From Escherichia coli (GTDB taxonomy: Bacteria; Pseudomonadota; Gammaproteobacteria; Enterobacterales; Enterobacteriaceae), in the NCBI RefSeq assembly GCF_024700885.2, contig NZ_CP117016.1: a stretch of 64,000 nucleotides of DNA; one strand, given 5' to 3'. Both the position numbers and the translations under genes were made by a program. Numbering within the stretch: position 1 is the first letter of the stretch; the number at the start of each line of letters is the position of its first letter. Shown piece by piece: positions 45,020 to 46,600 of the stretch. The notes below the pieces were generated by a model. The model did no database searches and was not told the DNA's origin. It saw only the letters and a list, made by a program, of their open reading frames with translations.

Positions 45020-45039
45020 TCATGCCGGATGCGGCGTAA
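45020..45039. repeat. Left half of a REP unit interrupted by the IS insertion
   Basis: ...GCCGGATGCGGCGTAA directly abuts the IS left inverted repeat; the rest of the REP (ACGCC...ATCCGGCCTACA) resumes after the IS right end. Confidence 0.55.
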
Positions 45040-45090
45040 TGAACTGCACCCCAAATGTTGGACATAATCTGACATCTGAAGGTGCAGTTT

Positions 45091-45612
45091 ATGAAACATT
45101 CATTTGAAGTAAAACTTGCCGCTGTAAATCATTACCTGGCTGGTCATGCAGGCATCATTTCTACGGCAAAACTCTTTCAACTTTCTCACACCAGCCTCTC
45201 ACACTGGATTAATCTTTTTCTTCTTCACGGTCCTCGGGCACTGGATTGCAGACACAAGCGTAGCTATTCTCCTGAAGATAAACTTTGCGTGGTTCTTTAT
45301 GCTCTCGGGCATTCTGAGTCTCTACCCCGGGTAGCTGCCCGGTTTAATATTCCCAGCCACAACACGGTTAAAAACTGGATAAAAGGCTACCGCAAATCTG
45401 GTAATGAGGCCTTTATCAGGCGCAGGAAGGAGAAAAGCATGACCCGTTCTGATGATACCCATGAAAACGAGGCAAACATGACGCCGGAAGAGATGAAGAA
45501 TGAGCTGCGTTATCTTCGCGCAGAAAATGCATATCTGAAAGCCATGCAGGAGCATCTCCTGGAAAAAAAGCGCCAGGAGCTGGAGAAAAAACGAAAGTCA
45601 TCCGGAGCCTGA
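45091..45612 (+). CDS. insJ: IS3-family transposase OrfA (InsJ-like, helix-turn-helix)
   Basis: ATG at 45091 with AAGGTG RBS; protein recognised as IS150 InsJ-like from memory; ends downstream of the slippery heptamer. Confidence 0.8.
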   Translation: MKHSFEVKLAAVNHYLAGHAGIISTAKLFQLSHTSLSHWINLFLLHGPRALDCRHKRSYSPEDKLCVVLYALGHSESLPRVAARFNIPSHNTVKNWIKGYRKSGNEAFIRRRKEKSMTRSDDTHENEANMTPEEMKNELRYLRAENAYLKAMQEHLLEKKRQELEKKRKSSGA

Positions 45613-45716
45613 GGTGCGGACACTGCCAGCCTGACCTGTTAAAGGCTGCAGGGCTGGCCAGAAGCACGCTGTACTACCAGCTGTCACTGCAGAAGGCTAA
45701 GGACAAGTATGCTGAT

Positions 45717-46439
45717 GTGAAACAGCTCATAGCCTCCATCTTCCATGAACACCGGGGATGTTATGGGTACCGGCGGATCCATTGTGAGCTTCAGAAAAGA
45801 GGTCTTAAGTTCAGTGGCAAAACGGTGCGAAAACTGATGCAACAGCTCGGCCTGAAGTCTCCTGTGCGCCTGAAGAAATACCGGTCTTACCGGGGAAATA
45901 TGGGACTCACTGCAGAAAATATCCTTCAGCGGCAGTTCAAAGCGGAAGCTCCCTGTGAGAAATGGGTGACAGATATCACCGAATTCAGGGCTGGCGGACA
46001 AAAACTGTACCTGTCCCCGATACTTGATTTGTTTAACGGGGAAATCGTGGCGTGGGAAACGGCCTGCAGGCCTACAGAGGAGCTGGTGAAGCGCATGTTA
46101 AATAAGGGGCTGGAAAGCCTTGCTGAAGGGGAGAAACCGCTGCTCCACAGTGATCAAGGATGGCATTACCGGATAAAAAGTTATCAGTCCGCCCTGGCGG
46201 ACAGAGGGTTAGTGCAGAGCATGTCGCGCAAGGGCAACTGCCTTGATAATGCGGTAATGGAGAACTTCTTTGGTCACCTGAAAGAAGAAATGTACTATCG
46301 CCGGGACTACAGAAATGTAGAAGAGCTGGAAAATGCCGTTAACGAATACATAACTTACTGGAATCAAAAAAGAATAAAACTCAGTCTTGGGGGACTCAGT
46401 CCGGTAGAATACCGGACTGAGCATCAAAAAGCCGGTTAA
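45717..46439 (+). CDS. insK: IS3-family transposase OrfB (DDE/rve integrase domain; InsK-like), expressed as OrfAB by -1 frameshift
   Basis: -1 frame relative to orfA; the track ORF starts at an internal Met but the frame is open upstream toward the slippery site at about 45564-45570. Confidence 0.8.
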   Translation: MKQLIASIFHEHRGCYGYRRIHCELQKRGLKFSGKTVRKLMQQLGLKSPVRLKKYRSYRGNMGLTAENILQRQFKAEAPCEKWVTDITEFRAGGQKLYLSPILDLFNGEIVAWETACRPTEELVKRMLNKGLESLAEGEKPLLHSDQGWHYRIKSYQSALADRGLVQSMSRKGNCLDNAVMENFFGHLKEEMYYRRDYRNVEELENAVNEYITYWNQKRIKLSLGGLSPVEYRTEHQKAG

Positions 46440-46471
46440 CTGAAACTGTCCAGGTTTTGGGGTTCAGTTCA

Positions 46472-46600
46472 GTAAACGCCCAATCCGGCCTACAAATTCA
46501 ATAAATTGCAGGAATCACATAGGCCTGATAAGCGTAGCGCATCGGGCGATTTTGCTTTTGTCATCAGACTTAATCCGGGCATGATAGCCCGGATTTCCGT
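46472..46600. repeat. Remainder of the interrupted REP plus further REP-like units
   Basis: ACGCCCAATCCGGCCTACA... and GCCTGATAAGCGTAGCGCATC... between the IS and ridA. Confidence 0.5.

What the first reader, a model, noticed from the sequence alone, without database searches (positions are those of the whole stretch)
45020..46600. IS150-like IS3-family element inserted precisely into a REP palindrome between mgtA and ridA
The flanks join to read GCCGGATGCGGCGTAAACGCC...CCGGCCTACA, a canonical REP unit, with GTAA present on both sides of the element (consistent with a 3-4 bp target duplication). The insertion sits in the mgtA 3' region and the ridA-pyrI convergent zone, so it may alter transcript 3' ends or stability, and it marks this as a non-MG1655 lineage.
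Basis: partly seen in the sequence, partly recalled or inferred. Interest (0 to 1): 0.45.

Follow-up and report, generated by a model that had tools for sequence, protein, structure and literature searches.

The report
IS1397 inserted in a REP hairpin
This is an intact copy of IS1397, a jumping gene of E. coli already known to aim at the small "REP" palindromes between genes; here it sits in one between mgtA and ridA, which is ordinary apart from being a rare strain marker.

Summary
Window 45040-46471 is a 1432-bp insertion sequence with imperfect terminal inverted repeats (TG...CA). It is flanked by a 4-bp GTAA duplication and splits a canonical REP/palindromic unit (PU) in the mgtA-ridA spacer.

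It is not merely "IS150-like". It is IS1397, 100% identical over its whole length to copies that RefSeq annotates as IS1397 in many E. coli genomes. IS1397 belongs to the IS3 family, IS150 subgroup, and is already known to insert into REP/PU sequences.

MG1655 and a strain with 100%-identical flanks (Ecol_316) carry the empty site with a single GTAA. Eight independent IS1397 insertions that I examined all lie in the centre of a PU, with 3-4 bp duplications.

The element looks intact:
- orfA and orfB are joined by an A AAA AAG -1 frameshift site.
- The protein has HTH domains, an rve domain and an intact DDE triad.

This particular insertion is rare: 7 of 5426 complete genomes. Both neighbouring coding sequences are untouched. 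Any effect on transcript 3' ends is untested. Already known biology; low interest.

The parts
45040..46471 (+). Complete IS1397 element (IS3 family, IS150 subgroup), 1432 bp
   Evidence: It is 100% identical over 1432 bp to copies annotated 'IS3-like element IS1397 family transposase'. All eight insertion sites examined hold a copy of exactly 1432 bp.
45040..45064 (+). Left terminal inverted repeat (IRL), starting with 5'-TG
   Evidence: (pair I1).
46447..46471 (+). Right terminal inverted repeat (IRR), ending with CA-3'
   Evidence: (pair I1).
45036..45039 (.). Left copy of the 4-bp target-site duplication GTAA
   Evidence: The empty sites in MG1655 and Ecol_316 have a single GTAA.
46472..46475 (.). 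Right copy of the 4-bp target-site duplication GTAA
   Evidence: One search shows that the element ends at CA, so the following G belongs to the flank.
45024..45039 (+). Left half of the split REP/palindromic unit (PU1, Y-type), GCCGGATGCGGCGTAA
   Evidence: (pair I9).
46472..46495 (+). Right half of the split PU1, (GTAA)ACGCCCAATCCGGCCTACAA
   Evidence: (pair I9).
46523..46547 (+). Second, intact PU of the same BIME (GCCTGATAAGCGTAGCGCATCGGGC). It is separated from PU1 by an AATTCAATAAATTGCA linker.
   Evidence: Read directly from the sequence. The same linker motif flanks other IS1397 target PUs. In strain FWSEC0009 this PU has IS621 inserted beside it.
45091..45612 (+). orfA (173 aa), the DNA-binding part with helix-turn-helix domains
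   Evidence: Pfam HTH_28, HTH_29 and HTH_Tnp_1. It is 27% identical to IS150 InsJ.
45564..45570 (+). A AAA AAG slippery heptamer, the site of the programmed -1 frameshift that yields OrfAB
   Evidence: The fusion protein built at this site exists verbatim in NCBI as an IS1397 transposase, and every 449-aa cluster member listed reads ...LLEKK/APGAG... apart from an L-to-P change at position 157 in two members. The fusion built at the alternative site 45586-45592 is not on record. RefSeq notes 'programmed frameshift'.
45570..46439 (+). orfB part of the OrfAB transposase (449 aa in all), with HTH_21 and the rve catalytic core. The catalytic triad is D295, D355 and E391, at codons 45972, 46152 and 46260.
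   Evidence: Pfam rve, rve_2 and HTH_21. NCBIfam IS3 transposase. Alignment with IS150, IS3 and IS2. Spacing is D-60-D-36-E, with K at E+7.
45039..45092 (+). Predicted RNA hairpin that pairs the IRL with the ribosome-binding site and AUG of orfA
   Evidence: pair I19. The fold is -25.5 kcal/mol with z -4.3. The same region without the IRL folds at only -6.9 kcal/mol, z -0.8. Its function is inferred.

Best explanation
Window 45040-46471 is an intact, probably recently transposed copy of IS1397. IS1397 is an IS3-family (IS150-subgroup) insertion sequence whose transposase selects the centre of E. coli REP/palindromic units as its target.

**How the transposase is made (inferred from sequence and family knowledge).** OrfA (the HTH part) is translated normally. 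A programmed -1 frameshift at A AAA AAG (45564-45570) produces the OrfAB transposase, which combines the HTH domains with a DDE/rve catalytic core.

**How it moves (known for the IS3 family, not tested here).** The element transposes by copy-out/paste-in, through a circular intermediate in which the two ends abut. Integration makes a staggered cut that is repaired into a 3-4 bp duplication.

**What happened here (shown).** The element integrated into the GTAA loop of the Y-type unit of a two-unit BIME, 75 nt downstream of the mgtA stop codon and 134 nt downstream of the ridA stop codon. It duplicated GTAA and split the hairpin.

**Consequences.**
- Both neighbouring coding sequences are intact.
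- The element is co-oriented with mgtA. A hairpin between its left end and the orfA start region would be expected to keep read-through transcripts from being translated (inferred).
- The main practical meaning of the insertion is as a rare lineage marker.
For: **Identity.**
- It is 100% identical over 1432 bp to RefSeq-annotated IS1397 copies.
- Full copies occur in 1707 of 5426 complete E. coli genomes.

**Family features.** The supporting results are.

**Empty site and duplication.**
- MG1655 and Ecol_316 have one GTAA, and Ecol_316 matches the rejoined flanks 500/500.

**Target preference.**
- Eight independent sites were examined: mgtA|ridA, smrB|yfcO, rrf|mobB, msrQ|zinT, yvcK|uvrB, barA|gudD, yshB|hemN and hyp|pgm.
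- All of them lie in the centre of a PU, with duplications of 3 bp (2 sites) or 4 bp (6 sites).

**Recency.**
- Identical copies sit at at least four different loci.
- The flanks here are identical to those of an empty-site strain.
- Only 7 genomes share this junction.

**Literature.**
- IS1397 is reported to insert specifically into REP sequences of E. coli, with the transposase held responsible for target choice. This comes from Tobes and Pareja 2006, PMC1525189, citing Clement 1999 and Wilde 2001 and 2003, and from PMC3184786.

**Frameshift site.**

**Left-end hairpin.**
Against: Nothing contradicts the identification. The limits are these:
- The ISfinder reference sequence of IS1397 could not be compared directly. 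The name rests on RefSeq/PGAP labels and on behaviour that matches the literature.
- The primary IS1397 papers were not available to read.
- Transposition competence, the frameshift and the role of the hairpin are inferred, not measured.
- No consensus sigma-70 promoter for orfA was found at the left end.
- Four of the eight sites were retrieved through similarity of the left junction. That biases them towards Y-type units in one orientation.
Confidence: 0.97

Rival explanations
1. The element is a different IS150-group element, or a new one, that merely resembles IS1397, and its position in a REP is a coincidence.
For: OrfB is 52% identical to IS150 InsK, and the terminal repeats resemble those of IS150.
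Against: - There is essentially no DNA similarity to IS150: the best stretch is 25 bp at 84% identity.
- It is 100% identical to annotated IS1397 copies.
- All 8 independent sites lie in PU centres, so the REP position is a property of the element and not chance.
Confidence: 0.01
2. The REP halves are part of the mobile unit: the element carries REP-like ends (as a REPIN or RAYT-type unit would) rather than having inserted into a pre-existing REP.
For: REP sequence is found on both sides of every copy examined.
Against: - Empty sites with an intact REP exist at the same locus in MG1655, in Ecol_316 and in up to about 4,680 genomes that match at least 80% of the rejoined flanks in one place.
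- The flanking units differ between sites (Y-type or Z-type, with different loops and different duplications), whereas the 1432-bp core is constant.
- The transposase is a DDE enzyme, not a Y1/HUH enzyme.
Confidence: 0.01
3. The insertion has a regulatory effect. By splitting the REP hairpin and adding 1.4 kb, it would change the 3' end, stability or convergent-transcription balance of the mgtA and ridA mRNAs. Alternatively, mgtA read-through at low Mg2+ would feed transcription into the transposase gene. This is an additional consequence, not an alternative identity.
For: - The intact PU1 hairpin (about -20 kcal/mol) is destroyed.
- No consensus intrinsic terminator is found between either stop codon and the element.
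- The element is co-oriented with mgtA, 75 nt after its stop codon.
- REP hairpins are reported as mRNA stabilisers (background section of PMC1525189).
Against: - Both coding sequences are intact.
- Hairpins remain next to each stop codon: 44973-44990 at -11.7 kcal/mol, and 46572-46595 at -19 to -21 kcal/mol. The second PU also remains on the ridA side.
- The left-end hairpin should block translation of read-through transcripts.
- There are no expression data.
Confidence: 0.25

Closest known systems
IS1397 (IS3 family; first described in natural E. coli isolates; Clement et al. 1999 J Bacteriol 181:6929 and Wilde et al. 2001 and 2003, as cited in PMC1525189)
   Same: - The sequence is 100% identical to RefSeq-labelled IS1397 copies.
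- The length is 1432 bp.
- It is inserted in the centre of a REP/PU.
- The target duplication is 3-4 bp.
- It has the orfA/orfB arrangement with a -1 frameshift.
   Different: Nothing in the element itself differs. Only the locus (the mgtA-ridA BIME) is particular, being shared by 7 of 5426 complete genomes.
IS150 of E. coli K-12 (the prototype of its IS3-family subgroup)
   Same: - The architecture is the same.
- Both use an A AAA AAG frameshift motif.
- The terminal repeats are similar: TGTACTGCACCC...GTTGGAC in IS150 against TGAACTGCACCCC...GTTGGAC here.
- OrfB is 52% identical and OrfA 27% identical.
   Different: - There is no meaningful DNA identity.
- IS150 is not known for REP targeting.
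- The IS150 left end does not form the same hairpin over its start codon.
IS621 (IS110 family), the other REP-targeting IS of E. coli
   Same: It targets REP units. In strain FWSEC0009 it occupies the same mgtA-ridA BIME.
   Different: - It uses an unrelated transposase of the DEDD/IS110 type.
- It inserts beside the second unit rather than in a loop.
- It has no terminal inverted repeats of the IS3 type.
ISKpn1 (IS3 family, Klebsiella pneumoniae)
   Same: The literature reports it as a relative of IS1397 that inserts into palindromic units.
   Different: It is specific for Klebsiella-type units. It was not examined here.

Membership tests
IS3 family insertion sequence | Length of about 1.2-1.55 kb, with imperfect terminal inverted repeats that begin 5'-TG and end CA-3' | tested here: met
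   The element is 1432 bp. Its ends are TGAACTGCACCCCAAA... and ...TTTGGGGTTCAGTTCA.
IS3 family insertion sequence | Two consecutive, overlapping reading frames (orfA in phase 0, orfB in phase -1) joined by a slippery A AAA AAG-type heptamer | tested here: met
   orfA is 45091-45612. The orfB frame is open from 45504 to 46439. A AAA AAG lies at 45564-45570. The fusion product is on record as an IS1397 transposase. Frameshifting itself was not measured.
IS3 family insertion sequence | Transposase with N-terminal helix-turn-helix domains and a C-terminal DDE (rve) catalytic domain, with K/R seven residues after the E | tested here: met
   - Pfam HTH_28, HTH_21, rve and rve_2 all score above their cut-offs.
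- The NCBIfam model NF033516 scores 385 bits against a cut-off of 160.
- The triad is D295, D355 and E391, with K398.
IS3 family insertion sequence | Target-site duplication of 3-4 bp | tested here: met
   The duplication here is GTAA, checked against two empty sites. Seven further sites show duplications of 3 or 4 bp.
IS3 family insertion sequence | Copy-out/paste-in transposition through a circular intermediate with abutted ends | not testable with these tools
   This needs PCR for circle junctions or transposition assays.
IS150 subgroup of the IS3 family | The transposase is closer to IS150 than to the prototypes of other subgroups | tested here: met
   OrfB is 52% identical to IS150 InsK, 32% to IS3 InsF and 23% to IS2 InsD. 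IS51 and IS407 prototypes were not compared.
IS1397 (the named element) | Near-identity to the reference IS1397 sequence. The ISfinder convention, recalled from my own knowledge, is more than 95% DNA identity. | tested here: met
   It is 100% identical to many copies that NCBI's pipeline names IS1397. The ISfinder reference entry itself was not available, so the test is indirect.
IS1397 (the named element) | Insertion specifically into the central part of E. coli palindromic units (REP) | tested here: met
   All 8 independent sites lie in PU centres. The property is reported in the literature.
REP / palindromic unit within a BIME (the target) | An imperfect GC-rich palindrome of about 35 bp matching the E. 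coli REP consensus, extragenic and repeated in the genome | tested here: met
   - The rejoined unit folds at about -20 kcal/mol.
- Its arm occurs 5 times in the window against 0.2 expected.
- It aligns with the REP hairpin of Rfam naRNA4.
- It lies between convergent genes, with a second unit 27 bp away.

The most novel reading that the evidence does not exclude
The mgtA-ridA BIME is a recurrent landing pad for unrelated REP-seeking elements: IS1397 in the loop of the first unit here, and IS621 beside the second unit in an O104:H4 strain. Because this copy is co-oriented directly downstream of the Mg2+-regulated mgtA gene, read-through at low Mg2+ might couple transposase transcription, or mgtA and ridA 3'-end processing, to magnesium status. 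Nothing here shows such coupling.
Probability: 0.07. Interest if true: 0.35.

Novelty: already known. Interest (0 to 1): 0.1.

Why it matters
It matters little beyond bookkeeping.
- The finding is a textbook example of a REP-targeting insertion sequence.
- It is a useful marker: only 7 of 5426 complete E. coli genomes share this junction.
- It shows that the copy family is young and probably active in this lineage, because identical copies sit at several loci.
- It is a reminder that BIMEs are hot spots where different mobile elements land without damaging genes.

Tried and rejected
**Literature.** I tried to read the primary IS1397 papers (PMC94167, PMC169884, PMC95333, PMC135288). None is held, so I relied on secondary citations.

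**Failed search.** A gapped whole-REP pattern search failed on syntax. I replaced it with a search for the arm alone.

**Terminators and promoters.**
- I looked for consensus terminators or promoters that would settle the transcript-3'-end question. None was found in the flanks. The only promoter-like site (46558-46585) is no more than chance would give.
- Hairpins near each stop codon exist, but neither has a convincing U-tract on the relevant strand. I therefore make no claim about where mgtA or ridA transcripts end.

**Junction promoter.** I examined by eye whether abutted ends would form a circle-junction promoter. The best fit is TGAACT-17-CATAAT, 8 of 12 matches, which is not convincing, so I make no claim.

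**Frameshift site.** I considered a second candidate, A AAA AAC at 45586-45592. The fusion protein made there is not on record, whereas the fusion at A AAA AAG is. The predicted structure downstream of the site is not significant (z -1.8).

**Orientation.** I asked whether the orientation of IS1397 relative to the asymmetric unit is fixed. Seven of 8 sites share one orientation, but four of the eight were retrieved through left-flank similarity, so the sample is biased and I make no claim.

**REP-carrying mobile unit.** I rejected this reading.

Full report
**What is there.**

The sequence between 45040 and 46471 (1432 bp) begins TGAACTGCACCCCAAATGTTGGACA and ends with the imperfect reverse complement ...TGTCCAGGTTTTGGGGTTCAGTTCA. 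The 16-nt end motif occurs only at these two positions in the 64-kb window, against 0.13 expected by chance.

GTAA flanks the element on both sides, at 45036-45039 and 46472-46475. The outer flanks, GCCGGATGCGGCGT and ACGCCCAATCCGGC, are complementary to each other (pair I9).

The neighbouring genes are as follows:
- mgtA lies upstream on the + strand, 42268-44964.
- ridA lies downstream on the - strand, with its stop codon at 46606-46608.
- pyrI and pyrB follow ridA on the - strand.

**Empty site.**

I joined the flanks after removing the element and one GTAA, and searched all complete E. coli genomes.
- 4678 genomes match at least 80% of the joined flanks in one place.
- Strain Ecol_316 matches 500 of 500 bases.
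- In MG1655 and Ecol_316 the spacer reads ...CATGCCGGATGCGGCGTAAA(C/T)GCC..., with a single GTAA.

The duplication is therefore 4 bp. A 3-bp reading, with the element ending in G, is excluded. At the msrQ|zinT site the base after the terminal CA is A.

The rejoined unit folds at -19.5 kcal/mol on the + strand and -21.4 kcal/mol on the - strand. Its left arm occurs five times in the window, against 0.2 expected. It aligns with the REP hairpin of the Rfam model naRNA4.

A second palindromic unit lies at 46523-46547, separated from the first by an AATTCAATAAATTGCA-containing linker. The target is therefore a two-unit BIME.

**What the element is.**

A megablast search of the 1432 bp gives 100% identity over the full length to many chromosomal copies annotated "IS3-like element IS1397 family transposase". 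Full-length copies occur in 1707 of 5426 complete genomes.

The coding organisation is that of the IS3 family:
- orfA is 45091-45612 (173 aa).
- A -1 frame is open from 45504 to 46439.
- A canonical A AAA AAG heptamer lies at 45564-45570.

The 449-aa fusion protein made at this heptamer exists verbatim in NCBI under the IS1397 name. Every 449-aa member listed for its cluster reads LLEKK/APGAG across the shift, apart from an L-to-P change at position 157 in two members. The fusion made at a second A-run, 45586-45592, is not on record.

The fusion protein matches the following models:
- Pfam HTH_28, HTH_21, rve and rve_2.
- NCBIfam's IS3 transposase model, at 385 bits against a cut-off of 160.

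The catalytic residues D295, D355 and E391 and the K at E+7 are present.

Compared with the K-12 prototypes, OrfB is 52% identical to IS150 InsK, 32% to IS3 InsF and 23% to IS2 InsD. The terminal repeats resemble those of IS150, but there is no useful DNA similarity to IS150. "IS150-like" is thus right at subgroup level, and the element's proper name is IS1397.

**Is the REP insertion a property of the element or a coincidence?**

I retrieved copies at seven other loci: smrB|yfcO, rrf|mobB, msrQ|zinT, yvcK|uvrB, barA|gudD, yshB|hemN and a hypothetical gene|pgm.
- Every copy is exactly 1432 bp.
- Every copy splits a palindromic unit at its centre.
- The duplications are 3 bp (GGC, AGC) or 4 bp (GTCA, GAAA, GTTA, GAAC, GTGA).

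This matches published work. [quoted passage not shown] The finding is therefore an instance of known behaviour.

**How it most likely works.**

Shown:
- the anatomy of the element;
- the target;
- the duplication.

Inferred from the sequence:
- production of OrfAB by -1 frameshifting at A AAA AAG;
- a left-end RNA hairpin in which the IRL (45039-45050) pairs with the Shine-Dalgarno sequence and AUG of orfA (45081-45092).

The hairpin folds at -25.5 kcal/mol with z -4.3. A transcript starting inside the element lacks it (-6.9 kcal/mol, z -0.8). This is the classical device that keeps read-through transcripts from activating transposase. It is relevant here because the element points the same way as mgtA, 75 nt after its stop codon.

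From established knowledge of the IS3 family, and not tested here: copy-out/paste-in transposition through a circle with abutted ends.

**Age and distribution.**

Identical copies lie at several loci in different strains. The flanks here are identical to those of an empty-site strain. Only 7 of 5426 genomes carry the left junction, six at 100% identity and one at 99%. The insertion is recent and marks a narrow lineage.

MG1655 has the empty site. An earlier survey found no IS1397 in K-12.

**Consequences for the neighbours.**

Both coding sequences are intact. The insertion destroys the first REP hairpin. It leaves a hairpin next to each stop codon and leaves the second unit on the ridA side. 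No consensus terminator or promoter clarifies where the transcripts end.

**Verdict.**

This is known biology: IS1397 in a REP. Interest is low.

Noticed in passing
L017 1501-1565 (K-12 MG1655 derivative, between yhhI and yhhJ); L018 1501-1565 (BL21(DE3)): Genomes without a full IS1397, among them K-12 and BL21(DE3) and about 1,780 complete genomes in all, keep an unannotated 65-bp relic of the IS1397 right end. The relic corresponds to element nt 1368-1432 and is 95.4% identical. It abuts a right half-REP (TAAACGCCTTATCCGGCCTAA) directly downstream of the ISEc1 transposase gene yhhI. This looks like an old REP insertion that was later truncated.
   Followed up: partly
L016 about 2788-4076 (E. 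coli O104:H4 FWSEC0009, mgtA-ridA spacer): The same BIME carries IS621 (IS110 family), another REP-targeting element. It is inserted beside the second palindromic unit, while the first unit stays intact. This spacer is therefore a repeated landing site for unrelated elements.
   Followed up: partly
L015 780-1340 (E. coli VREC0761, mgtA-ridA spacer): Some genomes have a completely different mgtA-ridA spacer without the BIME. It encodes a 151-aa protein annotated 'transposase', which matches only an N-terminal HTH_Tnp_1 domain and is encoded in very AT-rich DNA.
   Followed up: partly
NZ_CP025251.1 (E. coli BH100 substr. That suggests a burst of transposition in this strain.
   Followed up: no
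window 46395-46421: A perfect 12-bp inverted repeat (CTCAGTCCGGTA gaa TACCGGACTGAG) lies inside the 3' end of orfB. It folds at -22.6 kcal/mol with z -5.7. Its function is unknown. The K-12 relic begins in the middle of it.
   Followed up: no
window 42059-42174; 24909-24985 and 31135-31212; 61210-61404; 10542-10664; 15236-15293: Rfam matches above the gathering score elsewhere in the window:
- the Mg2+ riboswitch in the mgtA leader;
- two REP-derived naRNA4 elements;
- Ysr276;
- ES239;
- STnc450.
   Followed up: no
window 44969-44993 and 46571-46595: Two similar hairpin-forming sequences (TAAACTGGGCATGGTGGCCCGGATT and TAATCCGGGCATGATAGCCCGGATT, 84% identical) bracket the whole BIME, one just after each stop codon. 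Together with adjacent inverted arms (44985-45008 and 46557-46580) they give the spacer a larger symmetric layout.
   Followed up: partly
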